Source: a virus (lineage: Duplodnaviria; Caudoviricetes). From it: a stretch of 64,000 nt of DNA. The translations under genes were made by a program, and so were the position numbers. Numbering within the stretch: position 1 is the first letter of the stretch; every line of letters begins with the position of its first letter. Positions 47-60,184 of this stretch are shown piece by piece. The stretch is taken from positions 1-64,000 of the IMG/VR virus record IMGVR_UViG_3300028591_000020; one strand, 5' to 3'. Below the pieces are notes generated by a model. That model ran no database searches, was not told the DNA's origin, and worked only from the letters and a program-made list of their open reading frames with translations.

Positions 47-55
47 CCAAACACT

Positions 56-2728: not shown

Positions 2729-3205
2729 ATGAAAGAAACCAAATTAAACATCGAGCCGGAATTAGGCTCAATCTCAGCAAAAGGTACCAAGTGTTGGTAC
2801 GTTCGTTCTAACATGATAGCCCACAAGTTCATCGTACAGGAAGCCGAATGGATCGGTGGTGTATCAGACTTGCTTCGCATGGCCAAGGGTAATATGTTTT
2901 TCTCTTGGAAGGAAGCCAACGAGTTAGAGACTCAGCTTAATGAGCGTCTTGAAAAACTCAAAGCACTCACTCAGACCGACGAGTACAAACAGAAACTCGC
3001 TGATGATGAAGCCAAGAAAAAGGCTGAATCAGAAGAGCGCAAGCGTAAGCGCGAGGAAGCTATTGCCGCCAAGAAAGCTGCTAAAGAGGCTGCTATCATC
3101 GACCCAACGGCAAAGAAGAAGCCAAAAGGACTCACCACCCGAGAGGCCGCTATCAAGTACGAGGCTAAAAAGAAGAAATCTCCGCATCCTGATATTATCG
3201 TTTAG
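2729..3205 (+). CDS. hypothetical protein with Lys/Ala-rich coiled C-terminus
   Basis: 158-aa ORF; its TAG is part of a TAGTCT-hairpin element. Confidence 0.75.
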   Translation: MKETKLNIEPELGSISAKGTKCWYVRSNMIAHKFIVQEAEWIGGVSDLLRMAKGNMFFSWKEANELETQLNERLEKLKALTQTDEYKQKLADDEAKKKAESEERKRKREEAIAAKKAAKEAAIIDPTAKKKPKGLTTREAAIKYEAKKKKSPHPDIIV

Positions 3206-3371
3206 TCTCTCTATGGAAATGGGAGCTGTCCTCACGGATGGCTCCCATTTAAAACAAACTACTAATTCTTTTACTAACCAAAAACTATTAACCTTATGAA
3301 AAAACTCACTGCTACCGCTGTAGCATACCTGTATTAATAATCAACTATTTTCCGTTTTGTATGTTGCCGTG

Positions 3372-9982: not shown

Positions 9983-10051
9983 ACTGTTCTCTGTTTTTTG
10001 TTGTTAATAGGCTGGCAGAGCCCTTTTAGACCCTGCCAACCGTAGCCTTAA

Positions 10052-17626: not shown

Positions 17627-17638
17627 ATCTCTTTCGTT

Positions 17639-45530: not shown

Positions 45531-45562
45531 ATTGCATATATCGTTTTTTTTCACTATCTTTG
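45531..45562 (+). promoter_or_regulatory. rightward early promoter
   Basis: ATTG-N20-TATCTTTG, canonical Bacteroidetes -33/-7 spacing. Confidence 0.7.
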
Positions 45563-45652
45563 TAATACAAAAGATGAATATTTATTATTAACCAAAGGAG
45601 CGGAGCGCTTGGGGCTCGCCTGCAAAGCAGGAACACGGAGCGCACGGAGATT

Positions 45653-46187: not shown

Positions 46188-46220
46188 GGGACCGGAAGAA
46201 ATTCCGGCCCTATCTTTTTT
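46188..46220 (+). terminator. intrinsic terminator
   Basis: GGGACCGGAA-GAAA-TTCCGGCCC followed by TATCTTTTTT. Confidence 0.75.
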
Positions 46221-46352
46221 CATCCCAAAACTTTCCGGTAATGCAGCCAGGGGATCTGATTCCCTGATGGTCACAAGCCCACAAATGCAGAGTGACGGAG
46301 AAACGGGCGAGCCGACTGAACAGCCCGAACGAACGAATTGAACGAACGATTT

Positions 46353-47018: not shown

Positions 47019-47891
47019 CACAGAGCACATGCAGTACGATTGTGCTGCATGTAATGTGGCCATCCTTCGGGGTGAGAGTTGCAAGCCTCTAACACATAGC
47101 ACGGGCAAGGGCCTGTATAAAGACATATCTGCGGAAACCTCCTGAGAACGGAGTACGACATGGATTCGTTGCACGATGAAATGTTGTTGGATATGACACT
47201 GATGCAGGAAAATGCGGAGAGCGTTCCTCATTTCAGCAGTACGCCTGCTGAACGAGTACGACGAACGAATAGAGCCGCTGCCTGAGCGAACAACGCGACA
47301 CCCACGCAGTAGGGAGAAGTCGGGAGTAGGATTTATTCTGCTTTACGTTGAACCTGCTGAAATGGTCGAATAACGAGTAGGCCCTGGGCGATCAGATAAA
47401 AATCATATTCATTATTACGATTGATTCTCGCAGTTGATTGCGAGTACGATATAGAGTTGGCTACCTATCTCGAGTACGACTGTAGAAATGCAGTACGAAT
47501 TATCAGAGGATAATTCGTGGTGGTTCCCGTCGAAAGGTACGATAACACATTTAATCACTTTAGGATGAATCGGGCCGTGTGCTCATGGAGTACGATAGCC
47601 CCACCGCCACAGACGAATTAGATGTTTGTCTGGACGGCAGGGGAAATCTTGCTGCAGAGTACGATGAACGGCTGCAATGAAAGATATTACGAGGTGCGAG
47701 ACCTCAGCATAAAGAATGGCCTGACAGATGACCAAATCTGTCATTATCCCTCGGTTGGGGCAACGACGGCCTGCATTGTCAGGAAAGTCCCAGGTGAACG
47801 AAAGACGATAATGAACGAAGAGGGAGAGACTACGGGAGAGAGTGGAATTACCTCCGCTCTCTCTTACTATTTAACCAATAAAAGTACGATT

Positions 47892-48089: not shown

Positions 48090-48160
48090 CAAAGTCTCAT
48101 TGATTTTTGTGGCAAAAAGCTGCAAAAATCGCTCATGTTTCACCAAATATAATGAACGAT

Positions 48161-48439
48161 ATGGATAAGTTAAAGAAATTGCAGATGGTAGCCAAAGTTC
48201 TGAGAGATCACCACGGCTACAAAGGTAACAAAGAGTCAGACCATTCCATCAGGTTTAACTTCAAGTTTGACAAGAAGGGCAACATTTGTGGGCCGTACAT
48301 AGACATCTATAATGCCGAGAAGGGTGCAAATCTCTTCGTGTGGCCAGAGTTTATCGAGCTGTGTCATGGCTTGGGTCTGAGCCATTACATTACCTATGAC
48401 AAATATGACCTCAAAGAGGTGGTGCTACACATCTACTAA
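48161..48439 (+). CDS. hypothetical protein
   Basis: bounded by AGTCT-hairpin elements. Confidence 0.7.
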   Translation: MDKLKKLQMVAKVLRDHHGYKGNKESDHSIRFNFKFDKKGNICGPYIDIYNAEKGANLFVWPEFIELCHGLGLSHYITYDKYDLKEVVLHIY

Positions 48440-48490
48440 GTCTCACGGCTCCATCAGGAGCCACTATTATTCACCAAATAACGAACGAGT

Positions 48491-48754
48491 ATGAAACAGA
48501 GAGTAATCAAAACGACTGCAATCTTCCGTTGCATCGTAACATTCAAGGATGGTGCACACAAAATCATCCGCATGACCATTGACAAGGTAGCGCATTTCGT
48601 GTATCTTTTCAGACAGCAGGAGAGAAATATCTTCGTGGATGAAACATGTCTCTTCGAGATGTGCGAAAACGAGTGGTTATGTATGTCATCTGTAGCCGGT
48701 GCCAAATTCATCAATGACCGCACCGACCAGGAATTTCTCAGTATCAGTCTTTAA
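48491..48754 (+). CDS. hypothetical protein
   Basis: bounded by AGTCT-hairpin elements. Confidence 0.7.
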   Translation: MKQRVIKTTAIFRCIVTFKDGAHKIIRMTIDKVAHFVYLFRQQERNIFVDETCLFEMCENEWLCMSSVAGAKFINDRTDQEFLSISL

Positions 48755-48806
48755 AGGGTGGGTACATTTTGTACCCCTCCCACAACAAACCAATAATTAT
48801 TGAACG

Positions 48807-48974
48807 ATGGTAGTAAACAAGATTCTCCGCAACAAGTGCGGATTTTGGTATGTGGGCCGTCTTCTGACTGTTGATCCCGATGGTGTTCCCGTCTATCAGA
48901 GGTTGTCAGATGATTACGTCTACAAAGGATGGGCATTGAACTTTGCCCGTCGTATGTGTATCAAGCTATCGTAG
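48807..48974 (+). CDS. small hypothetical protein (55 aa)
   Basis: read by hand: MVVNKILRNKCGFWYVG...; bounded by elements. Confidence 0.65.
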   Translation: MVVNKILRNKCGFWYVGRLLTVDPDGVPVYQRLSDDYVYKGWALNFARRMCIKLS

Positions 48975-49047
48975 CCTTTTTGGCATGGGTTGGTTTTATT
49001 TCGTTCGTTCGCCTGCCTGTGCTGCTATTCACCAATACTATACGAAT

Positions 49048-49506
49048 ATGTTACCATCAGAATTTTATGACAGGACGCATATCAAGCTCTCCGGAGATGA
49101 ATATGCAGACGTAGAGAACATCTACAACAATGTGGAGATGCAAAAGGATGACTTCTGCCAGCATTGGGTTGAAGAGAAAGAAAATCCTCTGTTCAAGGAG
49201 TTGGCCAAAGCATTCTGCAAGCAGACGAAAGAGCTGTTGCAGACTCAGAGCGACCTCGGCACCATCGAGCACAAATACAAGAGCGAGATTGAGGCCATTA
49301 AAAAGGAGAATGAGCGCATCCTCTCTGACAAGGAAGAGGCTCACAAATCTCTGGGTCGTAAGATTATTGAGAATATCGACGACGAAGTACGTTTGCACGA
49401 TATTCTTGAGGAAGAGTTCACGATAGATTTCATCATCAAGGTCAAGCTGTATAATGACATGGAGCTTGAGCGTAGTGAGCGAGACTATCTAATCGGTAAG
49501 CTTTAG
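49048..49506 (+). CDS. hypothetical protein
   Basis: MLPSEFYDRT...YNN.EMQKDDFC; start after GAATATG leader. Confidence 0.7.
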   Translation: MLPSEFYDRTHIKLSGDEYADVENIYNNVEMQKDDFCQHWVEEKENPLFKELAKAFCKQTKELLQTQSDLGTIEHKYKSEIEAIKKENERILSDKEEAHKSLGRKIIENIDDEVRLHDILEEEFTIDFIIKVKLYNDMELERSERDYLIGKL

Positions 49507-49554
49507 TCTTTAGGAGCCTTGAACGGCTCCACTATTCACCAAATATGTAAGAAT

Positions 49555-49794
49555 ATGGAGAAACTATTGAGAAGTCAGCTTTATCTTGTCGGCTCTGCTG
49601 GCACGTTGGAGAATCTTTGTGCGTTCGCTAAGCAGCGTCTTTATTGGGCGCAGCTCGACACCTCTGAGAGTACACGCTACGAATCCAGGATGGGTAAGGT
49701 GTACGACGTGAGCAATCTCAACGGCCTCGTTCCTGACATGGTAATCATTCAGAGCAAGGTACGTTGTTCTCTTTTCAGGATCAAAGAGAAATAG
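49555..49794 (+). CDS. hypothetical protein
   Basis: start after hairpin-leader. Confidence 0.65.
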   Translation: MEKLLRSQLYLVGSAGTLENLCAFAKQRLYWAQLDTSESTRYESRMGKVYDVSNLNGLVPDMVIIQSKVRCSLFRIKEK

Positions 49795-49796
49795 CT

Positions 49797-49955
49797 ATGC
49801 CAAAGGGTAAAGTAAAGTGGCTCACGTTCACGGACAATCCCCGTTGGGGCAGATATTTCATCGGTGAGAGTGAGTCCAGACAGGAAGCCATCGACAAAGG
49901 TAAGGCAGCAAACAAAGGCAGATTCGTAGTTGAACGAAGAGTAAAGTTCAAGTAG
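49797..49955 (+). CDS. small hypothetical protein
   Basis: 52 aa; ends in TAG of a TAGTCT element. Confidence 0.6.
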   Translation: MPKGKVKWLTFTDNPRWGRYFIGESESRQEAIDKGKAANKGRFVVERRVKFK

Positions 49956-50008
49956 TCTTTTGCGGCTCTTGCATGGGCCGCACAATTAACCCTTTAAACT
50001 GAAAGAAT

Positions 50009-50896
50009 ATGGAAAGAAGAGAAAAAGTAAATGCCATCAAGAGTCTGGCAGTAAGTAGCGGACGGATGATTAGTATGGATCCGGAAAGCTGGGGCGAGCA
50101 TCGTCTGAACGCTTTGGAATCTGAGTTGCAGGAGTTTCTTGCGCAACTTCCCGAAGAGGTACGTGACGAGTACGAAGATAAGTACATCGGCAAATACAAA
50201 GAATGGCTCTATGCTATGAGCCGTTGTGTATCTCAGATGGTGACGGGTGCAGGTGGTTGGACGGCTGCTAAGCTACGACGCAAGCAGAAGAATGACCAGT
50301 ACGAACGTAATGCACGCGAACGTCTTGATAAGTGGGCCGAAAAGGTCATCAAACGTTGCAATCGCCAAGAACGCATGACTGGCTGGGCCGAAGTCGAACG
50401 TCTGCAAGAAAAGCTTGACAGCTTGACTGCAGCCCAGGAGATGATGAAAGCGGCCAACAGAATCATTCGCAACAAGAATCTTGCAGAGGTTGAAAAGGTT
50501 GACGAGTTGGTTGCCCTTGGTCATAGCGAACAGGATGCAATACACTTGATGGAGCCAGATTTCTGCGGACGTATCGGATATGCTGACTACGCATTGAGAA
50601 ACAATCTTGCCACCATAAAGGACACGGAAGCCAAAATCAAGCGTCATGCTGCAATGGCAGAGCGTGCGAGAGGTGGTGACGAGGTTCACGAATACAAGTG
50701 GGGAAAGCTTGTTGTTGCATTCGGTGACGAACGCTACCGCTTCATCTTCGATGGAAAGCCAGCCCCGAACGTCATCAGCCTCATGAAGAGCAATGCTTTC
50801 AAATGGAGTCCTTCAAACTCAGCGTGGCAGCGTCAGATTACCGTCAACGCAAAGTATGCCGTGAAGCGTATGATTGAACAGCTCAACAACATGTAG
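50009..50896 (+). CDS. DUF3560-like / polyvalent-protein-associated protein
   Basis: SQMVTGAGGW...; C-terminal FKWSPSNSAWQRQIT. Confidence 0.6.
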   Translation: MERREKVNAIKSLAVSSGRMISMDPESWGEHRLNALESELQEFLAQLPEEVRDEYEDKYIGKYKEWLYAMSRCVSQMVTGAGGWTAAKLRRKQKNDQYERNARERLDKWAEKVIKRCNRQERMTGWAEVERLQEKLDSLTAAQEMMKAANRIIRNKNLAEVEKVDELVALGHSEQDAIHLMEPDFCGRIGYADYALRNNLATIKDTEAKIKRHAAMAERARGGDEVHEYKWGKLVVAFGDERYRFIFDGKPAPNVISLMKSNAFKWSPSNSAWQRQITVNAKYAVKRMIEQLNNM

Positions 50897-50946
50897 CCTT
50901 TAGCCTGCCTTGCATGGTGGGCACCACAAACCAATACATTAGGAAT

Positions 50947-51144
50947 ATGCCACACATTATCATGCACAAAGGCGTAGAAATACGCCAGTACGGAACACAG
51001 CCGGGCGAGAGTGTTTATCCTCTCTGCTTTACCGACGATCTTGAGCAGCAGAACATGTGTAATAGTGACGGTAGAAACATCGTCAAGATGCACGATTCTC
51101 TTTGGGATGCTAAGGCTTATATTGACAAACACGTAAAATCATGA
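50947..51144 (+). CDS. small hypothetical protein
   Basis: start after hairpin-leader. Confidence 0.65.
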   Translation: MPHIIMHKGVEIRQYGTQPGESVYPLCFTDDLEQQNMCNSDGRNIVKMHDSLWDAKAYIDKHVKS

Positions 51145-51147
51145 GCC

Positions 51148-51381
51148 ATGGAGTACGAAAAAAATTGCACTCAGATAAACATCACAAAGTGGAATGCTCT
51201 GATGAAGGGAGCCAGGAAATGTAGCTATAAGAAGCTTGTTGCCAGAATCAAGAAAGAGATTCCCTCGCTCTATGAGTCGCTGTGCCTGAACTTCTACAAT
51301 CCGTGGGAAGGCGACTGCCAGCAGACAAAGACGCACTACATCTTGGTACACTCTGGCATAGAGTATTTTATCAGAAAGTAG
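51148..51381 (+). CDS. hypothetical protein
   Basis: FYNPW...THYILVHSGIEYF pattern. Confidence 0.7.
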   Translation: MEYEKNCTQINITKWNALMKGARKCSYKKLVARIKKEIPSLYESLCLNFYNPWEGDCQQTKTHYILVHSGIEYFIRK

Positions 51382-51439
51382 TCTGACACCATTTCGCTGA
51401 CACCAACGAAATGGTACTATAAACCAAACATTATGAATT

Positions 51440-51769
51440 ATGAAAGCATTATGTATCTCAACTTGTCATCTGATTGCTAACGGACACGGCTCTATCTTTG
51501 AGCCAGTACGCGAAATCAGCGGTAAGAAGTTCTATTGCAAGGGAGATTTCTCTATTGCAAAATCTTGCGAGAGGGCTTATGTGGTTCTTTGGAAGAATGT
51601 GATTGTTGGGGAGTTTGTCGGAGCGAACAAAGAGCTTGTTGACTTACTCCACTCCAAGACTGCACCTGACTCAAAGAAGGTCATGCAGAGTTACAACTAC
51701 AGGACCGCATTGGCTGATATTGAGGAAGCTCAGAAATGGGCAGAACGCTACAACTTCAAAATCTGCTAA
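51440..51769 (+). CDS. hypothetical protein
   Basis: bounded by elements. Confidence 0.7.
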   Translation: MKALCISTCHLIANGHGSIFEPVREISGKKFYCKGDFSIAKSCERAYVVLWKNVIVGEFVGANKELVDLLHSKTAPDSKKVMQSYNYRTALADIEEAQKWAERYNFKIC

Positions 51770-51827
51770 AGTCTCTGAATGTGGCTATGCTTTAGCCACA
51801 ACTATTAACCCCTAAACTTATAGGAAT

Positions 51828-52163
51828 ATGGAAACAAATGCAGTAGAAAAAGATGCTAAGCGCATCCACGAAGTGACAGGCCGACCAATGGCTGAGTGTG
51901 AAGAGCAGGCAAAGCAGATTGCCGAGTGTGTACGTGAAATGTGTGACCGCGTGGTGGAGTTCTTTTATCTCAAGAAGGATGGAACCACACGACAGGCTTT
52001 CGGTACGCTTCAGCAGGAAGTTGTCATTGCTCATGTGACAAGTCAGCCTTCCAAGGAACCAAACCCTGACCTCGTAACGTACTTTGATACTGAGGCTCAG
52101 GCATGGCGTTCCTTCAAGAAGGTTAACTTCAAGAGCTACGTAAAGCAGGGACAACAAGCATGA
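51828..52163 (+). CDS. DUF2693 / SH3-barrel (WYL-like) protein
   Basis: VEFFYLKKDGTTRQAFGTL...VTYFDTEAQAWRSFK. Confidence 0.8.
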   Translation: METNAVEKDAKRIHEVTGRPMAECEEQAKQIAECVREMCDRVVEFFYLKKDGTTRQAFGTLQQEVVIAHVTSQPSKEPNPDLVTYFDTEAQAWRSFKKVNFKSYVKQGQQA

Positions 52164-52297
52164 CGAATATCGCGAAATATGCTTGGTGTCTCTTCCTTGC
52201 AGCCCTGACGTTTGGTATCTGGACGCTCCCAATCTTAATCGTCTTGGTCCTCGTCAATCTCTATCTTATCAAAAAGCATCCCGAATGGTACAAATGA
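52160..52297 (+). CDS. small membrane peptide (45 aa)
   Basis: read by hand; ATGA overlap; long hydrophobic stretch. Confidence 0.6.
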   Translation: MTNIAKYAWCLFLAALTFGIWTLPILIVLVLVNLYLIKKHPEWYK

Positions 52298-52356
52298 AGT
52301 CTCAAGCCGTGCAAAGGACACGGCACACATTATTAACCCCTAAAATGTAGTGAATT

Positions 52357-53271
52357 ATGAAAAAAGAAAAGAACATTTGCGTAGAAGAAGTTGCCAAAGT
52401 TCCTGTTGTGAAGTACTACTTTTACAGGAAAGACACGAATGGCTATCTGAAAACGGATGGTGGGCTTGTTTATGTGTCAGTCACGGCTATCAGCATTGAC
52501 TTCAAGAAACAGCTCTTAGTAACGACGCTCACAGACAAGAGCGGCAAGGAGTATCTGAAAGAAGGTAAATTCTCTCTTTATGCAAGTCCAGAGGCGTACG
52601 AAGCTGACGATCCAATGAGAATGAACGTGTATCAGACGTGGGAACTTCTTAAGTTTGCCGATTGGGGCCGACTGACTGATTGCGCTGTTGGTATTGTTGA
52701 CGAGGAAGAAGGCAAGCAATCCTGTTATATCAAGGTATGGATATTCGAGGATGGTGGTGCAAAAGAAATTCCCGTTGTCATCAACTCCATTGCCTGCGAC
52801 ACGTACGAGAAATGGCACTTGACCGACGGCAACATTCCTGTGAAGATATGGGAAACCAGAGCTGACGCATACGCCTGCAACGAATATCAGATTACTGATA
52901 GTGACGGCGAGGTGTTCACTGAGGAAGGATTTCAGAAAAGACTTGTACCGACTCCTGCACAGTGGGTTGTCATTAAGCAGATGAAGGTGCTCTTCGATAA
53001 AGCAAAGGCATTAGGACTCCGCTTCATGTGGGACCGCGAATATGGCGGTAACCTCAAGGCTGTAAACTATGAGAATGTACACATCTTCGAGTACGACGCT
53101 CAAGCGTTTGAAGGTGGCGACCTCGTTCAGGTCAAGGACCTTGCGTTTGCAGATACCGGAATTGACTTCTTCGATTACTGTGGTGACGAGGGTGATAGAT
53201 ATAAGTTTGCCCTCAATCCAACAGCGCGTCAGAAAAAGGAATGGCTCAAAGCCACTCAAGGTAACGAGTAG
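52357..53271 (+). CDS. hypothetical protein
   Basis: 304-aa ORF bounded by elements. Confidence 0.75.
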   Translation: MKKEKNICVEEVAKVPVVKYYFYRKDTNGYLKTDGGLVYVSVTAISIDFKKQLLVTTLTDKSGKEYLKEGKFSLYASPEAYEADDPMRMNVYQTWELLKFADWGRLTDCAVGIVDEEEGKQSCYIKVWIFEDGGAKEIPVVINSIACDTYEKWHLTDGNIPVKIWETRADAYACNEYQITDSDGEVFTEEGFQKRLVPTPAQWVVIKQMKVLFDKAKALGLRFMWDREYGGNLKAVNYENVHIFEYDAQAFEGGDLVQVKDLAFADTGIDFFDYCGDEGDRYKFALNPTARQKKEWLKATQGNE

Positions 53272-53805
53272 TCTTTCTCCCTGCTTGCATGCAGGGAACA
53301 ACAAACCAAGTTTTGTTCGCTACGAGCAATCTCACGGCTCGCAGTTGCCATCAGTGGGTGACAGTAGGGAAAGACCTCCGTCTCATTCTCCACCACGTAT
53401 CAGACGTAAAAGCACGGGTGCGGTTTGTGACATGACAAAGTACACGTTGTGCGGCAGACGGGAGAAATTCAAGCACTTAGCATTTCGGTTCCTCTCACTC
53501 CTTAATAAAGAGAGCATGCGAAAGCCGTCGAAGCCACTTAGGGACGTAAAGGCAGTGGGGGTATGCAACCACCAAGTGAGTAACATCGGCTGATGAAGGA
53601 AAATAACAGGGCGTGCCGTGCGGCCATAGAGGCGGATAGTGCAGACCACACCTGCGCGAATGACAACCAAAGGCTACCGTTTAACGCTAACGCAAAAGCG
53701 CAAGCCATGGAACAACTATTCACGGAATTATCGTGTCTGAATTGGTAAAAGTCTTACAGGGAATGTGGACGCACATTCCCTACCAATAACCAACTACACA
53801 AGATT

Positions 53806-54324
53806 ATGGCAAAGTTAAACGTCTATTCATTTGCCGACTATAACTCTGTCCGTTTCCTCGCCCATCAGGTGAAGGATGGTAACGACAGCAGTATCAGTCG
53901 TGCAGCTCGTTACATGGCGCATCTTGTGTCGTGTATCGCTGACGAGCGATGTGTTATCATTCCTGTACCTGGTCGTACAGGTGTCGCTCTCTACACAAAG
54001 GTTCTTGCCGAACGTATCTCTGAGTTGACTGGTGTATGTGTCGTGGACTGCCTAAAGTGCAAGCCACACATGACTCAGTATCTCCGCAAGATACGCTATG
54101 GACTTGACAGCATGCGTCCGATGGATTTCTCCATCACTCAGGACGTTCCATCAGACGTTATCCCTATCCTCATAGATAACGTTCTCGACACAGGTACTAC
54201 CATCATGTCAGCCATGAAGGCATTGAACAGAACTCTCTACGTCGTTGTGCTTGGCAACACGCACAACTTCCTGCATTTCAATTATCCTATCAACCTCTAC
54301 GAACAGTCTCTTGCTCTCCAGTAA
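53806..54324 (+). CDS. phosphoribosyltransferase-like (ComF-type) protein
   Basis: VIIPVPG...; PRPP-loop-like LIDNVLDTGTT. Confidence 0.75.
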   Translation: MAKLNVYSFADYNSVRFLAHQVKDGNDSSISRAARYMAHLVSCIADERCVIIPVPGRTGVALYTKVLAERISELTGVCVVDCLKCKPHMTQYLRKIRYGLDSMRPMDFSITQDVPSDVIPILIDNVLDTGTTIMSAMKALNRTLYVVVLGNTHNFLHFNYPINLYEQSLALQ

Positions 54325-54362
54325 CATGGAGAGTGCTATTAACCCATAAAATTATCAAGAAT

Positions 54363-54689
54363 ATGACAAAGATTACCTACAATGAGCAAGAACTTCGCCT
54401 TGTGCAGTCTCGCTATCAGAACAACAATGCGCTCTACGTTGGACTCGTTGACAATGACGGAGAGTTTTATGCAGATGTGACGGTCAACATGCCCATCAGC
54501 AGCACTATGCCGACTGACTGCGCTTTCGTTGACACAAACAATCTCTCTTGGAAAATCATCGAAGTGCTGACTGATGCAGGTATTGTGACACCTATCCATC
54601 AGACGTGCAGAAGTGGTTTCTATCAGTATCATGCTTTCCGCTTTCAGAATCTCTGGGATATTGATGACATCACAGCAGCGATCAACTAA
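54363..54689 (+). CDS. DUF4313-like protein
   Basis: Y.NN.ALYV.L...GE.YADVTVN...AFVDTNN...SGFYQY. Confidence 0.75.
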   Translation: MTKITYNEQELRLVQSRYQNNNALYVGLVDNDGEFYADVTVNMPISSTMPTDCAFVDTNNLSWKIIEVLTDAGIVTPIHQTCRSGFYQYHAFRFQNLWDIDDITAAIN

Positions 54690-54891
54690 GTACGAAGCCG
54701 TCTGCGAGTCAGGAAATACGGATGCTGACACCATCATAAAGTTCCCTGACCGCGAATCGGCAGAAATGTTCTGTCAGATTTGGCGTGCCTCGCATCCTGG
54801 CACCCATGCTTGGGTACGAGAGACACAGCACCGCCACATGGAGCACAACACGCTTGGCCGTTCCGTAATGACGGTGGACCTCTACGATTAG
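54664..54891 (+). CDS. hypothetical protein
   Basis: ORF ending in TAGCCT element. Confidence 0.55.
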   Translation: MTSQQRSTKYEAVCESGNTDADTIIKFPDRESAEMFCQIWRASHPGTHAWVRETQHRHMEHNTLGRSVMTVDLYD

Positions 54892-54951
54892 CCTCAGTGT
54901 GCAGCGTGATTTTGTCACGCTGTTCCCAATAACCCCTAAATACATCAGAAT

Positions 54952-55488
54952 ATGAATGAATACAAACCAATCTTCGCCTGCTATGAAGAAATCAAGCAGC
55001 GTGAAATCAGAGAATTGAAGGATGCGGTACGAGCAGCGAGAGGGCAGTATGTTTTCCCGAAGGATAAACATCCGTATGTGATGTGCAACCTCGACTCTGG
55101 CCCGTGTGACCTACGTGTTGACAGCGTAGAGATACAAAACATTTCAGACGTAGATGTACTGGTCATCTTTGGTTACGACGAGCAGGCAGGGCAGGCAGTT
55201 GAAATCTCTCTTGAGGATATTGCTTACAGCCATATCTCGTTTATCACAGAGGCTATTCCCGTTCGCAAGTTCACACAATCTTCATTCTCTATCTCTCGCC
55301 TCAGTCGTGAAGACCTTGAACAAAAAGGATTTGATACGTCTGACGTGGATGACAAGACGATGGAAAAGCTGGCTTCTAAGCTGGGTGATGACTATTGCGA
55401 ACAACTCTTTTGGATTTCGCTCGAAATCATTGCCGAATCTATGGGCATTCCTCGCAGAGAGGACCACAAAGAGGATGATGACGAATAG
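54952..55488 (+). CDS. hypothetical protein
   Basis: F.ISRLSREDLEQKGFD.S.VDDKTMEKLASKLGDDYCEQLFW pattern. Confidence 0.75.
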   Translation: MNEYKPIFACYEEIKQREIRELKDAVRAARGQYVFPKDKHPYVMCNLDSGPCDLRVDSVEIQNISDVDVLVIFGYDEQAGQAVEISLEDIAYSHISFITEAIPVRKFTQSSFSISRLSREDLEQKGFDTSDVDDKTMEKLASKLGDDYCEQLFWISLEIIAESMGIPRREDHKEDDDE

Positions 55489-55490
55489 CT

Positions 55491-55700
55491 ATGGCCACCA
55501 TCCGCTTGCAGCTCATTAAGGGCTTCTTCTATCCGACGGATGCAGATAGTCGTAAGATTCTCGAAGAGAGTATGCGGCTTGACCGCATCCCACTTGAACG
55601 AATAGACGTGGTATCTCCCAAACTTGTGAAAGCTGGTCATGCTCTGGCTATCACAGGCTGGGACCCACCGCCTGTTCCCGTGCGCTTTTCGTCTCTTTAG
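55491..55700 (+). CDS. small hypothetical protein
   Basis: coupled ORF. Confidence 0.6.
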   Translation: MATIRLQLIKGFFYPTDADSRKILEESMRLDRIPLERIDVVSPKLVKAGHALAITGWDPPPVPVRFSSL

Positions 55701-55750
55701 CCGTAAGAAATTTACGGCACTACCTAACCCCTTAAAAGAAAGGATTGAAT

Positions 55751-56659
55751 ATGAGTCAAAACAATGTTTATCAGATGGTGACTGACCGCATCGTGGCACA
55801 GCTGGAGCAAGGGCTTGTTCCTTGGCATAAGCCGTGGACGGGCGTAGGTCTTGAAGATGGTGGAGCTATCAACTATGTCAGCCGAAAGCCTTACAGTATG
55901 CTGAATCAGATGCTTCTTGGACGCGAGGGAGAATATCTCACCTTCAAGCAGATCAAGGAGCGTGGAGGTAGTATCAAGAAGGGAGCGAAAGCTGGTGTCG
56001 TGGTATTCTTCACCACTACGACCTATACCAAGCGCGAGGAAGTGCAGGAAGATGGCTCTACCGAGACTGTCAACGTCGTAAAGGAACATCTTATGCCTGT
56101 GCTCAAGTACTACAACGTCTTTCATATTGACGATTGTGAGGGTATCGAGAGCAAGATTAAGGTTGAAGAGGATGCTGGACCGAAGATTTCTCCCATCGAG
56201 TCAGCCGAGAAGGTTCTGAACGGCTACGTCGAACGAGAGAAAGAACTGCAGTTCCGCAACAATATACCGACTGACCGGGCCTACTATTCTCCGACACTCG
56301 ACCTTATCTCTGTTCCTATGCTCTCTCAGTACGAGATTGCGGAAGAGTATTACTCGACCACGTTCCACGAAGCGATTCACTCTACCATGCCAGAGAATCG
56401 TTGCAACCGCAAATCTGAGCAGAAACTTGCTGCCTTTGGTAGTGAGGACTATTCTCGCGAGGAACTTGTGGCCGAGATTGGCTCTGCCATGCTCTGCAAC
56501 AATGTTGGCATCGACTGCGAGAAGGCTTTCAAGAACTCTGTAGCCTATATCCAGGGATGGCTTAAGAAGCTCAAGAACGACAATCGAATGATTGTGTGGG
56601 CTGCATCCCGTGCTGAGAAGGCTGCAAAGTACATTCTTGGTGAGCCTGACGCTGAGTAG
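55751..56659 (+). CDS. ardC: ArdC-like antirestriction ssDNA-binding protein with zincin (HExxH) domain
   Basis: VTDRIVAQLEQGLVPWHKPW, YSMLNQMLL, YLTFKQ, AYYSP, HEAIH, YSREELVAEIGS. Confidence 0.9.
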   Translation: MSQNNVYQMVTDRIVAQLEQGLVPWHKPWTGVGLEDGGAINYVSRKPYSMLNQMLLGREGEYLTFKQIKERGGSIKKGAKAGVVVFFTTTTYTKREEVQEDGSTETVNVVKEHLMPVLKYYNVFHIDDCEGIESKIKVEEDAGPKISPIESAEKVLNGYVEREKELQFRNNIPTDRAYYSPTLDLISVPMLSQYEIAEEYYSTTFHEAIHSTMPENRCNRKSEQKLAAFGSEDYSREELVAEIGSAMLCNNVGIDCEKAFKNSVAYIQGWLKKLKNDNRMIVWAASRAEKAAKYILGEPDAE

Positions 56660-56716
56660 TCTATCATTCCTGATGTGTAAGGCATCGGGAACTATAAACC
56701 AAACAATATCAAGAAT

Positions 56717-57415
56717 ATGGAAAGAACATTTTTACCCGTAAACTGTTGGGCAGCGGAAGATATTCCGTCCAACAAACTGATTGAGGGCAACCCCGAGAAC
56801 ATGAGTAATGCAGAATTGCTCTCTATCATCATTGGCACTGGCTCCGATAAGGAGAATAGTGTAGAACTTGCACGTCGCATCCTTCTAACCTGTGACAACA
56901 AGCTTTCAGAGCTGGCTAAGAAGTGCAACAACCCCAACAATCTCACCTACATGCGTGGCGTGGGCAAGCAGAAAACTGCTAAGATTATAGCAGCTCTCGA
57001 ACTTGGCAAGCGTCGCCAGCATGAGCAGGCCACCGAACGGCCTGAACTCAAAACGGCAGTACGAGTCTATAATATGATGGCTCCTATCATGCAGGATTTG
57101 GAAAAGGAAGAGTTTTGGGTGCTTCTCATGGGTCAGCACTTCAAGCTGATAAAGAAGTTCCGGCTGTCACAGGGTGGTATCTCTGAGGTGTCCGTGGATA
57201 TTCGCATCATCATGAAGGAAGCGGTTCTGAATAACGCCACCGTCTTGGCTGTCTGTCATAACCATCCCTCTGGCTCTCTGAATCCGAGCAAATGTGATGA
57301 CGATATAACATTCAGCCTCAAGAAAGCCTGTGATGTTATGCGCATCCATCTCAGCGATCATGTCATTATAACTGATGGCGCATACTACAGCTATCGCGAG
57401 CAAGGAAGAATCTGA
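56717..57415 (+). CDS. radC: RadC family JAB/MPN protein
   Basis: SNAELLSII, ALELGKR, EEFWV, HNHPSG, DHVII. Confidence 0.9.
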   Translation: MERTFLPVNCWAAEDIPSNKLIEGNPENMSNAELLSIIIGTGSDKENSVELARRILLTCDNKLSELAKKCNNPNNLTYMRGVGKQKTAKIIAALELGKRRQHEQATERPELKTAVRVYNMMAPIMQDLEKEEFWVLLMGQHFKLIKKFRLSQGGISEVSVDIRIIMKEAVLNNATVLAVCHNHPSGSLNPSKCDDDITFSLKKACDVMRIHLSDHVIITDGAYYSYREQGRI

Positions 57416-57435
57416 CCAACAAATGACCAACAATT

Positions 57436-57651
57436 ATGTTATACACCGACGTTCAAGCTCAGGAACTCGTAGGGCAGGTTCTCGAATCTCTCAACGAGGA
57501 TGGCCGTTATCCTCTCCATGAGGGAGATATGGGCTACTACAAGAATGCCAATGGAATCTGGACGGCTTGGGATAATTCTACAGGCGACTGCTGGGTAGAG
57601 GATTTCAAGACCCGAAAGGAGGCCATTGAATGGTTAGGAAATGTTAATTAG
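57436..57651 (+). CDS. hypothetical protein
   Basis: WTAWDNSTGDCWVEDF pattern. Confidence 0.7.
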   Translation: MLYTDVQAQELVGQVLESLNEDGRYPLHEGDMGYYKNANGIWTAWDNSTGDCWVEDFKTRKEAIEWLGNVN

Positions 57652-57688
57652 TCTTTTTATCCTGCATGACATTTGCCGTGCAGGATGC

Positions 57689-57814
57689 AACTCACACAGC
57701 AACTCACACACTGATTCACACAGTAATTCACACACTTAACACATTGTGTATCAAAGAGTTAATGCAAAACATCACACACCAATTCACACAGCGATTCACA
57801 CACTAACTCACACA
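57689..57814 (+). repeat. 2x4 array of 12-bp-period direct repeats (RAYTCACACA) around a central spacer
   Basis: copies at 57689, 57701, 57713, 57725 and 57769 (degenerate), 57781, 57793, 57805. Confidence 0.9.
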
Positions 57815-57974
57815 ATCGCGCGTGTGTATATAAAGGTACGTGCGCGTTTATTGTTATATAATAAATATATATTCTACCAGTATATATATACTTGTTCAAA
57901 AACGACTTTTTGTCTCTGATGTTAAAAATTCAGAAAACATCCTATATTATAAACCAAATTATTAATTTTGCAAT

Positions 57975-58949
57975 ATGAAAGAATTAAGAGGTCTCAGTTT
58001 AGACCAAAACAAGAAGTTCAAGTTCGCTATAGAATGCGGATATTTGGACGATTGGGAAACTGACCCACGAAAATGGAAACATACTTTCGTAGGTGCTTTC
58101 CTATGGAAATATCCCTCAAGGGTTAAAATCCTGAATATCCTCAAGGATATTATAGGCAACATACCTACGTGGGGTGACTTGAATGACGAGACATTACGCG
58201 ACCTCGTAGATGAACTGATAGAGCAGGGCCTTGCCACGTCATCCATCAGAACGATGTGTGCAGAGCTGAAAGTGGTACTCAATGAGAATGTGAAAAAAGT
58301 ACCATGCGACAGCTTCCAGAAGATATTGTCTGTGAAGGGGTCGGCAACAAAGCCAGTCTATCTGACGAGTAGCGAAATGGAACTCCTTCTTGCTTTCAAG
58401 CCTCGTACAGAGACGGAACACTACGTGCATCGTAACTTCTGCGTCTCTATGCTCACGGGCGCAAGGCTTGTAGATACATTGAAGCTAACCATCAGTAATT
58501 GTGACATTGAAACAAATATGCTGTCATACATTCCTCAGAAGACTCCTGGCATTGTCGTACACGTTCCCGTTGATGAACGGCACCACCTGCGAACGTTCCT
58601 TGCAGATATACCAAAGAACGACAGGTGCCTTGATACGTACAACGAGGTCATACGACGCATCTGTGAGCTTGTTGGCATTGACACGGTATGTAATGCCGTC
58701 AAGGCAGGAAAGGACGTGACAGCACCAAAGTATCAGCTTGTCAGCTCTCATACAGCACGTCGCTCCTTTGCGACGAATCTATATTTGGCTGGTGTGTCGC
58801 TCGAAGACATATCCATGATGATGGGCCACGGCAAGAATATCGAGACAACAAAACGGTATATCTGTGCAGAGCGTGCGCTGAATCCAAACGTCATGTCATA
58901 CTTCCAGCAGCCAGTCACCACTCCCTCTGAACTATCAGAGGTTGGTTAG
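57975..58949 (+). CDS. second tyrosine recombinase
   Basis: TGAR, QKT, HTARR, MGH, KRYI: complete R-K-H-R-H-Y set. Confidence 0.9.
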   Translation: MKELRGLSLDQNKKFKFAIECGYLDDWETDPRKWKHTFVGAFLWKYPSRVKILNILKDIIGNIPTWGDLNDETLRDLVDELIEQGLATSSIRTMCAELKVVLNENVKKVPCDSFQKILSVKGSATKPVYLTSSEMELLLAFKPRTETEHYVHRNFCVSMLTGARLVDTLKLTISNCDIETNMLSYIPQKTPGIVVHVPVDERHHLRTFLADIPKNDRCLDTYNEVIRRICELVGIDTVCNAVKAGKDVTAPKYQLVSSHTARRSFATNLYLAGVSLEDISMMMGHGKNIETTKRYICAERALNPNVMSYFQQPVTTPSELSEVG

Positions 58950-58951
58950 TC

Positions 58952-60184
58952 TCAAGGCAGGGTTTTCCCTGCCACAAAATCAACCACTCTTCTCACAGCA
59001 TTGTCTATCTTACGCTGGTCATGGGCGATATAACGTGCCGTAACGCGCTTACTCCAAGAATGCCCGAGACACTGGCCGATAGTCTGCTCACTGATGTCAA
59101 GGTCGTTTGCAGCTATTGATCCGAACGAGTAGCGTGCTGAATAGAGTGTGATGTCAGGACAGAGTGGTGCATACTCCATCTTTCGGAGCTTACCTACTTT
59201 GTCCTTTACCTTCCAGCTTGGACCAACCTTCTGCAGAGCTTCGTTGGCTTGCTTGGCGAACGAGTGATAGTCGCTCCTGCAGTCCATAAAACTAACGAGC
59301 CAGCCCTCTCTCGAAGGATAGCGGTCAATAATCTCCTGCGCCTCTGGCAGTACTGGCAGGGTGATGACACGAATCTTCGTCACACCTTCCTTATTCGTTT
59401 TCTTTCTGATAAACGAGATGTGGCCATCCTTGATGCTGTCTGCTTTGAGCGATAGCAGGTCAACGGGATTGATGCCTGCAAGGTAGAACGATAGGAAGAA
59501 GAAGTCAACGTATGGCCGTTGCCACGGCTCACAAGGATAATCTCTGAGTCGTCTCAGTTCCTCGACGGAAAGATTGTTGGGAACTGTCTCTTCCTCTCTG
59601 ATGTGATAGTCCAGGAAAGGATAGTTTGTGGTCATTCCCTTGCGTCTGGCCCAATTGAACACAGCACGGATATTCCTCAGTTCCTTTGCCACGCCATTTA
59701 TCTTCATGCCATGCTTGATGCAGTGGTCATAGAACGAGTCCATCCAGTCTTTTTCGATTGAAAAATCAGCGTTTCGATCGAACGATTCCACCTTCCTCGC
59801 TGTTATCCTATACAAAACAGCCGTTTGTTCCCTTTTTGTGGCGGCGAACGATTGGATAGCATCTGACAGGGCGAACGGCTTGGCTTTCTTCTGAATGCCG
59901 AAAACCTCATTCAAAATACGCTCCTTGAGTTCTTTGTTGCTCAGCCCTGCAATATCCCGTTCGAGACATAGCGAGGTTACAGAGGCGAAATATTTGCCCA
60001 ATAGGATAGTCTTACGCTTCCAATCTCTATCAGACTTTGGAAACGACATCTCAACCAGCTTATCACATGTAGTGATGCCAGTGTTCACGAAAAATCTGCC
60101 CTGCTTCGTACTGACGATGAAGTACACAGGGAAAGAGCCGTCTTTGTTCGCTCTTGTTGTGTTTACATAAGGATAAATCTTCAT
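58952..60184 (-). CDS. int: phage integrase (Bacteroidetes tyrosine recombinase with arm-binding N-terminus)
   Basis: N-terminal GSFPVYF arm-type domain; GINPVDL, RKKT, YSARYSF, LGHSW, TARYI; next to att core. Confidence 0.9.
   Translation of the reverse strand: MKIYPYVNTTRANKDGSFPVYFIVSTKQGRFFVNTGITTCDKLVEMSFPKSDRDWKRKTILLGKYFASVTSLCLERDIAGLSNKELKERILNEVFGIQKKAKPFALSDAIQSFAATKREQTAVLYRITARKVESFDRNADFSIEKDWMDSFYDHCIKHGMKINGVAKELRNIRAVFNWARRKGMTTNYPFLDYHIREEETVPNNLSVEELRRLRDYPCEPWQRPYVDFFFLSFYLAGINPVDLLSLKADSIKDGHISFIRKKTNKEGVTKIRVITLPVLPEAQEIIDRYPSREGWLVSFMDCRSDYHSFAKQANEALQKVGPSWKVKDKVGKLRKMEYAPLCPDITLYSARYSFGSIAANDLDISEQTIGQCLGHSWSKRVTARYIAHDQRKIDNAVRRVVDFVAGKTLP

What the first reader, a model, noticed from the sequence alone, without database searches (positions are those of the whole stretch)
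48092..58975. Cassette-like gene array punctuated by a conserved NAGYCT-hairpin-leader element
Seen: (T/A/C)AG(T/C)CT followed 2-8 nt later (mostly 3-5) by a 6-12 bp stem-loop, usually then an A/C-rich leader and ATG. Copies at 48092, 48438, 48745, 48972, 49504, 49953, 50894, 51379, 51769, 52297, 53269, 53749, 54304, 54889, 55689 (deviant TCGTCT), 56657, 57649, 58947, plus an outlier at 3203; possible degenerate copies at 47827 (AGACT) and about 10047 on the minus strand (AGGCT). Stem sequences all differ but pair, often with G-T wobbles that work only on the + strand; three share the loop TTGCAT. None has a U-tract on either side, so they are not intrinsic terminators. In 11 of 19 the TAG of the motif is the upstream gene's stop codon; in three the ORF reads through the motif, so it is not just a stop-codon context. 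Leaders fall into local subfamilies (TATTCACCAAATA; TTAACCCYTAAA; AAACCAA). The second tyrosine recombinase is itself bracketed by two copies. Established analogies: integron attC sites (stop codon inside the core site), PeSL cassettes of T4-type phages, REP GTAG-plus-hairpin substrates of HUH enzymes, RNase III sites of the T7 early transcript. It matches none of them exactly. Inference: these are either recombination joints of a phage gene-cassette system or sequence-specific RNA processing/start sites giving each early gene a 5'-hairpin-protected mRNA.
Basis: partly seen in the sequence, partly recalled or inferred. Interest (0 to 1): 0.85.

Follow-up and report, generated by a model that had tools for sequence, protein, structure and literature searches.

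The report
Hairpin punctuation between phage accessory genes
Almost every gene boundary in a 12-kb accessory operon of this Prevotella phage carries the same three-part signal (a box at the stop codon, a hairpin, an A/C-rich leader), which probably marks where the long message is cut or shielded and is also where related phages swap genes.

Summary
A strict scan finds 16 AG(T/C)CT-plus-hairpin copies on the + strand of 48-59 kb, against 0.8 in shuffles and none on the minus strand.

- a stop codon fused to AGYC(T);
- 3-9 nt of spacer;
- a 6-13 bp hairpin;
- the leader aCTATT(A/C)ACCAA;
- about 15 nt, then GAAT(T)ATG.

Stems differ in sequence, and G·T outnumbers A·C 46 to 3, so the sense strand is the one that folds. 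No module contains a host-type promoter or a U-tract terminator. The same operon starts with conserved twister ribozymes.

The family occurs in rumen Prevotella phages and in Segatella copri prophages, always upstream of a 324-aa Xer-like recombinase. Related phages gain and lose genes at the modules. However, breakpoints vary in position, and 67 distinct arrays keep strictly the same cassette order (0 of 618 pairs reversed). That argues against integron-style mobility.

Best reading: an RNA punctuation module in a polycistronic transcript that also serves as a PeSL-like recombination joint. The mechanism is inferred, not shown.

Unchecked notes from this scan report integron-like arrays in other Bacteroidota phages. 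I tested that idea here, and it is not favoured.

The parts
45555..45594 (+). Host-type Bacteroidota -7 box TATCTTTG (45555-45562), followed 22 nt later by the leader motif ATTAACCAAA. Likely the promoter of the whole + strand operon.
   Evidence: The only intergenic TAnnTTTG facing the array; no module contains one.
46235..46298 (+). Twister-P1-like self-cleaving ribozyme in the first intercistronic gap.
   Evidence: 53.4 bits, E 1.2e-9, below Rfam's gathering score. Counterparts in G003 and G006 and L100.
47048..47105 (+). Second, weaker twister-like match.
   Evidence: 27 bits, E 0.04. At the matching place G003 and G006 have a Twister-P5 above the gathering score.
47829..47891 (+). Degenerate module: AGACT, hairpin 47834-47865, leader ACTATTTAACCAAT, ATG 47892.
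48093..48151 (+). Module: AGTCT, hairpin 48101-48131, leader, ATG 48152.
48439..48490 (+). Module: TAAGTCT, hairpin 48447-48462, leader ACTATTATTCACCAAAT, ATG 48491.
48746..48806 (+). Module: AGTCT with the stop TAA just after it, hairpin 48756-48781, leader, ATG 48807.
48973..49047 (+). Module: TAGCCT, long-loop hairpin 48982-49023, leader, ATG 49048.
49505..49554 (+). Module: TAGTCT, hairpin 49513-49530, leader, ATG 49555.
49954..50008 (+). Module: TAGTCT, hairpin 49961-49982 (loop TTGCAT), leader, ATG 50009.
50895..50946 (+). Module: TAGCCT, hairpin 50903-50922 (loop TTGCAT, two G-T pairs), leader, ATG 50947.
   Evidence: The matching junction in L100 keeps the pairing with changed bases.
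51380..51439 (+). Module: TAGTCT, hairpin 51388-51415, leader, ATG 51440.
51770..51827 (+). Module: AGTCT, hairpin 51780-51800, leader ACTATTAACCCCTAAA, ATG 51828.
   Evidence: The same leader sits behind a different hairpin in G006.
52298..52356 (+). Module: TGAAGTCT, hairpin 52306-52324, leader, ATG 52357.
   Evidence: The identical hairpin follows the same small gene in four relatives, each time with a different leader behind it.
53270..53309 (+). Module: TAGTCT, hairpin 53278-53297 (loop TTGCAT), leader ACAACAAACCAAG. It is followed by an ORF-less stretch of about 440 nt, not by an ATG.
   Evidence: G006 has the same leader and ORF-less stretch behind another hairpin.
53750..53805 (+). Module: AGTCT, hairpin 53758-53781, leader, ATG 53806.
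54305..54362 (+). Module: CAGTCT, hairpin 54313-54334 with the upstream ORF's stop inside the loop, leader, ATG 54363.
54890..54951 (+). Module: TAGCCT, hairpin about 54897-54927, leader, ATG 54952.
55690..55750 (+). Module with the deviant box TCGTCT, hairpin 55700-55718, leader ACTACCTAACCCC, ATG 55751 (ArdC-like gene).
56658..56716 (+). Module: TAGTCT, hairpin about 56667-56691, leader CTATAAACCAAAC, ATG 56717 (RadC-like gene).
57650..57687 (+). Box and hairpin only (TAGTCT, hairpin 57658-57687). TCACACA iterons follow instead of a leader.
57975..58949 (+). 324-aa Xer-like tyrosine recombinase at the 3' end of the array. It has a leader motif at 57946-57961 and a -7 box TAATTTTG at 57963-57970.
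   Evidence: Homologues sit downstream of module arrays in 76 of 80 viral loci.
58948..58973 (+). Box and hairpin after the recombinase (TAGTCT, hairpin 58956-58973). It overlaps the 3' end of the convergent integrase gene.
   Evidence: Conserved in G003 and G006.
3204..3295 (+). Outlying copy: TAGTCT, 8 nt, a 14-bp hairpin with A- and T-tracts (it also looks like a bidirectional terminator), leader ACTAACCAAAAAC, then a 13-codon ORF.

Best explanation
Each copy is a composite intercistronic punctuation module that works in the sense-strand transcript of one long operon. The operon probably starts at the host-type promoter at 45555. The module has two halves. H is the AGYC(U) box fused to the stop codon plus a stable hairpin of variable sequence; it forms the 3' end structure of the upstream cistron. 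L is an unstructured, G-free leader (aCUAUU(A/C)ACCAA ... GAAU(U)AUG); it forms the 5' untranslated region of the next cistron.

I infer that a host endoribonuclease cuts at or beside the hairpin. The hosts encode both RNase Y and RNase E/G. Cutting would leave each cistron with a 3' hairpin against exonucleases and a clean, accessible leader for Shine-Dalgarno-independent initiation. At the least, the hairpin would insulate neighbouring cistrons from each other.

Because every accessory gene of this phage family is formatted with the same short H and L signals, the modules are also the places where ordinary or relaxed homologous recombination joins different genes. The phage has a RecT-like protein. 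The modules therefore behave as linkers of a hyperplastic accessory region, as PeSLs do in T4-type phages.

Shown here: the anatomy, the strand specificity, the absence of promoter and terminator signals, the family distribution, and gene exchange at the modules. Inferred: the cleavage, the enzyme, and the role of the AGYC box.
For: Structure and strand:
- Stems differ in sequence but all pair. Internal wobbles are G-T 46 against A-C 3, where composition predicts 47% G-T (p = 4e-12).
- In minimum-energy folds the box and the leader stay single-stranded.
- GNRA and UUCG tetraloops recur among the loops.

Polycistronic context:
- None of the 18 leaders holds the Bacteroidota -7 box TAnnTTTG. The box occurs at 45555 ahead of the operon.
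- The hairpins lack U-tracts. In contrast, the terminators seen in four host loci, two each from Segatella copri and the Prevotella MAG, and the phage's own terminator at 46189-46225 have them.
- Every intergenic gap of 40 nt or more in the array carries a module. Genes without one are coupled by gaps of 20 nt or less.

RNA cutting is built into this transcript: two twister ribozymes lie at the operon head here and in G001, G003 and G006.

L behaves as an RNA 5' end:
- In the S. copri-type phages a host promoter TATCTTTG sits 8 nt before the leader of the recombinase gene.
- L also precedes ORF-less RNA genes, at 53305 and 63129.

The box is selected together with the stop codon. The stop overlaps the box in 58 of 77 modules, and TAG makes up 59% of array stops against 16% elsewhere.

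The hosts encode RNase Y (643 bits) and RNase E/G (442 bits). Structure-guided RNase Y cleavage 6 nt upstream of a duplex has a published precedent (PMC5449607).

Gene exchange at modules is seen. The phage encodes a RecT-like protein. The PeSL precedent is PMC2839356.
Against: - No RNA end data exist, so cleavage is wholly inferred.
- G-T wobbles would also be tolerated in folded + strand DNA, so the strand bias does not exclude a single-stranded DNA role.
- The AGYC box has no assigned reader. It drifts between lineages (AGTCT, AGCC[T/A]AAAA, degenerate), so it may be dispensable.
- If cleavage fell inside the box, three ORFs would lose their stop codon.
- The tight linkage of arrays to a Xer-like recombinase in every lineage is left unexplained.
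- Stems of 6-13 bp are shorter than the 24-bp RNase Y guide in sae and far shorter than RNase III sites.
Confidence: 0.5

Rival explanations
1. Integron-like cassette system. The box and hairpin would be an attC-like site that folds in single-stranded + strand DNA. The adjacent 324-aa Xer-like recombinase would excise and insert cassettes of the form leader-ORF-box-hairpin.
For: - Recombinase homologues down to 39% identity have at least 3 modules in the 10 kb upstream in 76 of 80 viral loci: 1.18 per kb, against 0.05 downstream and 0.04 on the other strand. The same holds in Prevotella and S. copri prophages.
- In 10 of 21 comparisons the shared sequence ends 0-3 nt after the hairpin foot. 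The 304-aa gene present here and absent from G006 is bounded in that way.
- The stop codon sits in the 5' box, as in many attC sites, and AGCCTAAC variants resemble RYYYAAC.
- The G-T bias is compatible with DNA folding.
- Gene order differs at two points between the distant lineages G002 and G004.
- Unchecked notes of this scan claim such systems in other Bacteroidota phages.
Against: - Across 67 distinct arrays and 162 cassette clusters, all 618 cluster pairs seen together at least twice keep one order. No cassette is repeated within an array.
- Breakpoints are not fixed. Eleven of 21 lie 9-17 nt into the leader, and the indel of cassette 12 maps inside the leader.
- The G004/G005 replacement has diverged, homeologous flanks, as expected of homologous exchange.
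- There is no conserved inverted core 3' of the hairpin, and the stems are near-perfect without extrahelical bases.
- The recombinase scores 31.6 bits against a 265-bit cut-off for integron integrases.
- The recombinase gene itself carries L and H, and modules also occur outside the array (3204, genome 68995).
Confidence: 0.15
2. A true PeSL-type unit. The hairpin would terminate or attenuate transcription of the upstream gene, and the leader would hold a promoter read by a phage-modified RNA polymerase, so that each gene is its own transcription unit.
For: - The order stop / stem-loop / conserved box / ATG is the same as in PeSLs, whose U-less stem-loops terminate well in vivo (PMC2839356).
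- L precedes non-coding RNA genes, which need no translation signal.
- L coincides with the 5' end expected from a real promoter.
Against: - No leader contains the host -33/-7 consensus.
- The family searches of 30 proteins returned no sigma factor, RNA polymerase or antiterminator. Most small ORFs were not searched.
- The ACC box lies only 15-24 nt from the ATG.
- The host terminators examined carry U-tracts.
Confidence: 0.15
3. A purely translational device without cleavage. The hairpin starts about 9-12 nt after the stop codon, at the mRNA entry of the terminating ribosome. It would keep the G-free leader unpaired, or govern termination-reinitiation, in a host that initiates without Shine-Dalgarno pairing.
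For: The distances are tight: the stop overlaps the box, the spacer is 3-9 nt, and hairpin end to ATG is 21-36 nt. The leaders are G-free and predicted to be unpaired.
Against: The module also precedes ORF-less RNAs and, at 57650, follows the last gene before the iteron region with no ORF after it. This reading does not explain the AGYC box.
Confidence: 0.1
4. A new, very small self-cleaving ribozyme class, suggested by its position next to twister ribozymes.
For: Known ribozyme classes tend to cluster (own knowledge of Weinberg et al. 2015). Twisters head the same operon.
Against: Only about 5 + 11 conserved, unpaired nucleotides flank a stem of free sequence. I saw no conserved tertiary pairing, and no covariation between TAG and CTA. 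No module matches an Rfam ribozyme.
Confidence: 0.03

Closest known systems
PeSL (promoter-early stem-loop) cassettes of T4-type phages (Arbiol et al. 2010, PMC2839356)
   Same: A repeated composite intergenic motif between a stop codon and the next ATG. It has a stem-loop with G-T pairs, is concentrated in a hyperplastic region of small accessory ORFs, and marks gene insertions, deletions and replacements between relatives, with crossovers at varying points inside the motif.
   Different: No host-type promoter is present in the module. A box fused to the stop codon precedes the hairpin. The hosts are Bacteroidota, which use no Shine-Dalgarno sequence. Mini-circles have not been tested.
Integron cassette arrays (IntI, attI, attC)
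   Same: A co-oriented row of short, mostly promoterless cassettes, each ending in a folding element that begins at the stop codon, with a tyrosine recombinase gene at one end of the row.
   Different: The recombinase is not an IntI. There is no R''/R' inverted core and there are no extrahelical bases. Breakpoints are variable and the arrays are strictly collinear in 67 relatives.
RNase III processing sites of the T7 early transcript (R0.3-R1.3)
   Same: Hairpins in the intercistronic gaps of a polycistronic early phage transcript that cut it into stable units (own knowledge).
   Different: The stems are 6-13 bp, too short for RNase III. There is a linear 5' box, and many more copies.
RNase Y site of the S. 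aureus saePQRS transcript (Marincola and Wolz 2017, PMC5449607)
   Same: A downstream duplex guides cleavage a fixed 6 nt upstream in an intergenic region, and this shifts the stability of the flanking cistrons. In the window's lineage the G of AGYCT lies 6 nt before the stem.
   Different: The sae guide is a 24-bp duplex, and the cleavage-site sequence does not matter there. No cleavage has been shown here.
REP/BIME elements with RAYT transposases
   Same: A short conserved 5' tetranucleotide-like box followed by an extragenic palindrome, often just after stop codons.
   Different: REP palindromes are conserved in sequence within a genome; here the stems are unrelated to each other. The family searches run here returned no HUH enzyme, though I made no dedicated search for one.

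Membership tests
Integron (attC / IntI) | An integron-type integrase (IntI clade with its extra domain) | tested here: not met
   TIGR02249 scores 31.6 bits against a cut-off of 265, and PRK15417 15.7 against 435. The best matches are weak, generic Xer models.
Integron (attC / IntI) | attC with paired inverse core sites R'' (RYYYAAC) and R' (GTTRRRY) and extrahelical bases | tested here: not met
   Only a 5' box is conserved. The 3' side is the leader aCTATT(A/C)ACC, which is not complementary to the box, and the stems are near-perfect.
Integron (attC / IntI) | Cassettes excised and re-inserted, giving reordered or repeated cassettes and one fixed crossover point | tested here: not met
   0 of 618 cluster pairs are out of order in 67 arrays and there are no repeats. 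Breakpoints fall at 0-3 nt or at 9-17 nt from the hairpin foot.
PeSL regulatory cassettes | A repeated intergenic stem-loop motif between stop and ATG in a hyperplastic region, marking gene indels between relatives | tested here: met
PeSL regulatory cassettes | A host sigma-dependent early promoter inside the motif | tested here: not met
   No module contains TAnnTTTG, and sigma-70-like matches are not above the shuffle level (32 against 25.6 +/- 4.6).
PeSL regulatory cassettes | Mini-circles formed by recombination between neighbouring motifs | not testable with these tools
   Needs inverse PCR or read-level data.
Intrinsic (Rho-independent) terminator | A G+C-rich hairpin immediately followed by a U-tract | tested here: not met
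   Only 48447 and 48101 pass a lax T-count filter. The host terminators examined and the phage terminator at 46189 have clear T-tracts.
RNase III processing site | About 20 bp or more of duplex | tested here: not met
   The stems are 6-13 bp.
REP / RAYT | A palindrome whose sequence is conserved among copies, plus a cognate HUH transposase | tested here: not met
   The stem sequences are unrelated between copies. The HUH gene was not specifically searched for.
Known self-cleaving ribozymes (Rfam) | A match to a ribozyme covariance model at the module | tested here: not met
   The only Rfam hit on a module is a chance-level Histone3 stem-loop (E 0.045). The twister hits lie elsewhere.

The most novel reading that the evidence does not exclude
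The box and hairpin are folded-DNA recombination sites of a phage-borne, integron-like gene-capture system run by a Xer-type recombinase rather than an IntI. The collinearity seen in 67 arrays would then reflect recent common descent plus selection, not the absence of cassette mobility.
Probability: 0.13. Interest if true: 0.85.

Novelty: new variant of a known kind. Interest (0 to 1): 0.6.

Why it matters
The array holds counter-defence-type genes (ArdC-like, RadC-like and many unknown ORFs). Its content differs between nearly every pair of related phages, including prophages of the common human gut bacterium Segatella copri.

A standard plug-in format for accessory genes would explain how these phages keep swapping such genes without breaking expression. 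The format consists of a stop-linked box, a hairpin and a leader.

It would also be a natural example of cistron insulation in a phylum that translates without Shine-Dalgarno pairing and whose mRNA processing is poorly known.

The modules give a simple sequence handle for finding accessory-gene regions in Prevotellaceae phages. One carrier is a sequenced isolate (strain HDD04), so the RNA and DNA models can be tested directly.

Tried and rejected
- The 11-kb region has no match in the phage collection by megablast.
- Relatives found through the ArdC-like protein (L001-L028) mostly lack the module, so it does not travel with that gene.
- A 15-mer leader search in viral contigs gave mainly chance hits.
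- A phage carrying a 71%-identical homologue of the 295-aa gene has no modules at all (L101).
- TAG(T) pairing with (A)CTA as a closing helix: no covariation. CTA is equally frequent behind AAG and CAG boxes.
- An antisense terminator reading fits only the AGCC-AAAA lineages. It does not fit this window, where the spacer is pyrimidine-rich.
- Neither the box nor the leader is complementary to the 3' end of S. copri 16S rRNA.
- The loops of the two tRNA-like RNAs contain no complement of the box.
- Ribozymes do not replace hairpins at junctions in seven further arrays.
- My fixed-register count of compensatory changes was confounded by whole-hairpin replacement (66 both-changed pairs kept, 66 broken). 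I do not use it as a statistic.
- The test of whether H goes with the upstream gene and L with the downstream gene gives only a moderate bias in the S. copri set (H 54% against 32%; L 36% against 25%).
- Three literature searches found no description of this element.

Full report
**Setting.** The window is bases 1-64000 of a 75,595-bp phage record whose two ends repeat each other.
- Virion genes lie mainly on the minus strand up to about 44.6 kb, apart from a + strand block at 35.4-39.5 kb.
- A 1-kb A+T-rich control region follows.
- From 45653 a co-oriented + strand operon runs to 58949, where it meets a convergent 410-aa integrase.
- The operon encodes an ArdC-like protein, a RadC-like protein, a weak phosphoribosyltransferase-like protein, a protein matching a PHROG labelled primase, many ORFs with no family, and at its end a 324-aa tyrosine recombinase.
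- A repressor, an anti-repressor, a RecT-like protein, a helicase and a methyltransferase lie beyond the integrase.
- A close relative is an integrated prophage next to a tRNA gene in a Prevotella MAG. More distant ones sit in Segatella copri genomes.

A strict scan gives 16 copies on the + strand of 48-59 kb. Shuffles give 0.79 +/- 0.88, the opposite strand none, and the remaining 63 kb a dozen weak hits over both strands. The hairpins are stable (-10 to -16.5 kcal/mol, mean z = -3.0), and the minimum-energy folds leave the box and the leader unpaired.

**The unit is bigger than AGYCT plus a hairpin.** I aligned 60 modules from five phages. Behind the hairpin comes a G-free leader with consensus aCTATT(A/C)ACCAA, followed by about 15 A/T-rich bases and GAAT(T)ATG. 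The distance from hairpin end to ATG is 21-36 nt.

On the 5' side the box is welded to the stop codon:
- TAG of TAGYCT is the stop in 43 of 77 modules.
- TAA of AGCC-TAA is the stop in 15.
- The stop lies 1-8 nt before the A of the box in most of the others.

TAG makes up 59% of stops in array genes against 16% elsewhere in the genome. Every intergenic gap of 40 nt or more in the array holds a module. Genes without one overlap their neighbour or follow it within 20 nt.

**Which strand folds.** I allowed both G-T and A-C as internal pairs. The stems of 81 modules in six phage records then contain 46 G-T and 3 A-C, where base composition predicts about equal numbers (p = 4e-12). The structure is therefore selected on the sense strand. 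That fits RNA. It does not by itself exclude folded + strand DNA.

**Not promoters, not terminators.** The Bacteroidota -7 box TAnnTTTG occurs at 45555, ahead of the first gene, and at 57963, just before the recombinase ATG. It occurs in none of the 18 leaders.

The four host loci examined, two each from S. copri and the Prevotella MAG, show hairpins flanked by A- and T-tracts. So does the phage's own terminator at 46189-46225. The modules have no such tract. The array is thus most simply one long transcript that reads through the modules.

**RNA cutting is a theme of this operon.**
- Rfam finds a twister-P1-like ribozyme at 46235-46298 (E 1e-9, below the gathering score) and a weaker match at 47048-47105.
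- Two twisters sit at the same place in G003 and in G006, with the P5 type above the gathering score. One sits in L100.
- I did not find ribozymes taking the place of hairpins further down seven other arrays.

**The leader behaves as an RNA 5' end.**
- In the S. copri-type phages the recombinase gene has a host promoter TATCTTTG 8 nt ahead of its leader, so a primary transcript would begin with L.
- Here L follows the operon promoter by 22 nt.
- L also precedes two ORF-less RNA genes, the roughly 440-nt stretch after 53305 and the tRNA-like gene after 63129. It is therefore not only a translation signal.

**The family.**
- The module array occurs in IMG/VR contig 3300011008_000302 (13 copies, nearly all TAGTCT) and in four further viral records found through a gapped pattern. 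It also occurs in the Prevotella MAG prophage and in S. copri prophages, including strain HDD04.
- The box varies by lineage: AGTCT plus pyrimidines here, AGCC[T/A]AAAA in the S. copri and sheep/goat types, and weak in G002. When I search only for hairpin plus ACC leader plus ATG, 68 of 118 hits have AGYCT.
- A phage with a 71%-identical homologue of the 295-aa gene has no hairpins at all. The module is therefore a lineage trait, not a requirement of the genes.

**Link to the recombinase.** Homologues of the 324-aa protein (39-82% identity) were recovered in 80 viral loci. Seventy-six have at least three modules in the 10 kb upstream on the same strand: 1.18 per kb, against 0.05 downstream and 0.04 on the other strand. 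The exceptions mostly have short flanks.

The two array-bearing records without the gene end inside the array. Many of the 80 loci are close kin, so this amounts to about four independent lineages.

The protein is a generic Xer-like recombinase and fails the integron-integrase models. In this phage it sits beside TCACACA iterons that another note links to the replication initiator. A role in multimer resolution is an untested alternative.

**Gene exchange at the modules.**
- The arrays of G000, G001, G003 and G006 share about a dozen gene families in one order, with unrelated genes between them.
- The hairpin after the 45-aa gene at 52160 is identical in four relatives, and the sequence behind it diverges 2 nt after the stem in each.
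- The leader of the 111-aa gene at 51828, and that of the ORF-less stretch, each sit behind different hairpins in G006.
- The 304-aa gene (52357-53271) is absent from G006, and the gap is bounded by the two hairpin feet.

So far this resembles cassettes of the form leader-ORF-box-hairpin.

**Why I do not read it as an integron-like system.**
1. Breakpoints are not fixed. Of 21 pairs with a shared hairpin and different downstream sequence, 10 diverge 0-3 nt after the stem and 11 diverge 9-17 nt into the leader.
2. For the presence or absence of cassette 12 in the S. copri set, a polymorphic base at leader position 3 stays with the upstream hairpin. That puts the crossover inside the 13-nt identical leader core.
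3. For the 178-aa gene at 54952, only the last 10-12 nt before the ATG are shared between relatives.
4. The one replacement between two nearly identical phages (G004 and G005) has flanks that pass from 100% to about 90% identity before diverging. That is expected of homologous exchange with a diverged donor.
5. I cut 75 S. copri-type arrays at the hairpin feet and clustered the 893 pieces into 162 clusters, which gave 67 distinct arrays. All 618 cluster pairs seen together at least twice keep the same order, and no array repeats a cluster.
6. Single clusters have up to 14 different neighbours, so mixing is intense, but it preserves order. Excision and re-insertion at an attI-like site should scramble order. 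Deletion between modules plus homologous exchange between collinear phages should not.
7. Tandem duplicates of two cassettes in G001 fit unequal exchange between modules.

This behaviour matches that described for PeSLs, including crossovers at several points of the motif (PMC2839356). The phage has a RecT-like annealing protein. Two order differences between the distant lineages G002 and G004 keep the door slightly open.

**What the RNA module does** is inferred.
- The hairpin is shared more often with the upstream gene (54% against 32%) and the leader slightly more often with the downstream gene (36% against 25%). This suggests a 3' element plus a 5' element rather than one 5' cap.
- The hosts encode RNase Y and RNase E/G.
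- In S. aureus a downstream duplex directs RNase Y to cut 6 nt upstream and changes the fate of the flanking cistrons (PMC5449607). In this window's lineage the G of the box lies 6 nt before the stem, but the spacing is longer in other lineages.
- Cleavage beside the hairpin, protection of cistron ends and insulation of the unstructured leader are all compatible with the data. I cannot separate them without RNA ends.
- What reads AGYC is unknown.

**Verdict.** The element is an undescribed relative of PeSL-type regulatory cassettes in temperate phages of Prevotellaceae, acting most probably at the RNA level. An integron-like reading is disfavoured but not excluded.

Other, unchecked notes of this scan claim integron-like arrays with Xer-type recombinases in other Bacteroidota phages. 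I used them only as a lead for the order and breakpoint tests.

Noticed in passing
window 46235-46298 and 47048-47105: Two twister-type ribozyme matches in the first intercistronic gaps of the operon. Counterparts lie at the same place in G003 (L225 13308-13371 and 12665-12733, minus strand), G006 (L241 8511-8576 and 8099-8172, minus strand) and L100 (6396-6457).
   Followed up: partly
window 46189-46225: A canonical hairpin-plus-T-tract terminator directly after the first gene and just before the twister. This suggests attenuation or antitermination at the operon head.
   Followed up: no
window 53298-53745: An ORF-less slot of about 440 nt, formatted like a cassette (leader in front, box and hairpin behind) and followed by a phosphoribosyltransferase-like gene. 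The slot is conserved in G006, though its 5' part differs. No Rfam match.
   Followed up: no
window 57690-57970: TCACACA iterons, an A+T-rich tract and a -7 box TAATTTTG ending 4 nt before the recombinase ATG. The recombinase mRNA may be leaderless.
   Followed up: no
window 49976-49981, 50916-50921, 53291-53296; also L100, G003, G004, L234: The hairpin loop TTGCAT (or TTGCAC, TAGCAT) recurs on unrelated stems in several lineages. This hints at a loop-specific partner for a subset of modules.
   Followed up: no
window 1-80 and genome 75470-75595: The first roughly 80 bases of the record are repeated at its end, as expected for a circular or circularly permuted assembly.
   Followed up: no
window 3296-3337: The outlying module at 3204 is followed by a leader and a 13-codon ORF (MKKLTATAVAYLY) between convergent operons.
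   Followed up: no
window 9985-10060, minus strand: A module-like unit (AGGCT, imperfect hairpin, CCTATTAACAAC leader, ATG) in front of a late gene on the minus strand.
   Followed up: partly
L220 (G001) 15497-15874 and 17560-17924: Tandem duplications of two small cassettes, each copy ending in the same hairpin.
   Followed up: partly
G006, about 1.4 kb beyond its recombinase (L232 12375-12440): The Prevotella MAG prophage ends at a tRNA gene just past its integrase. This places the module array at the integrase-proximal end of the prophage.
   Followed up: no
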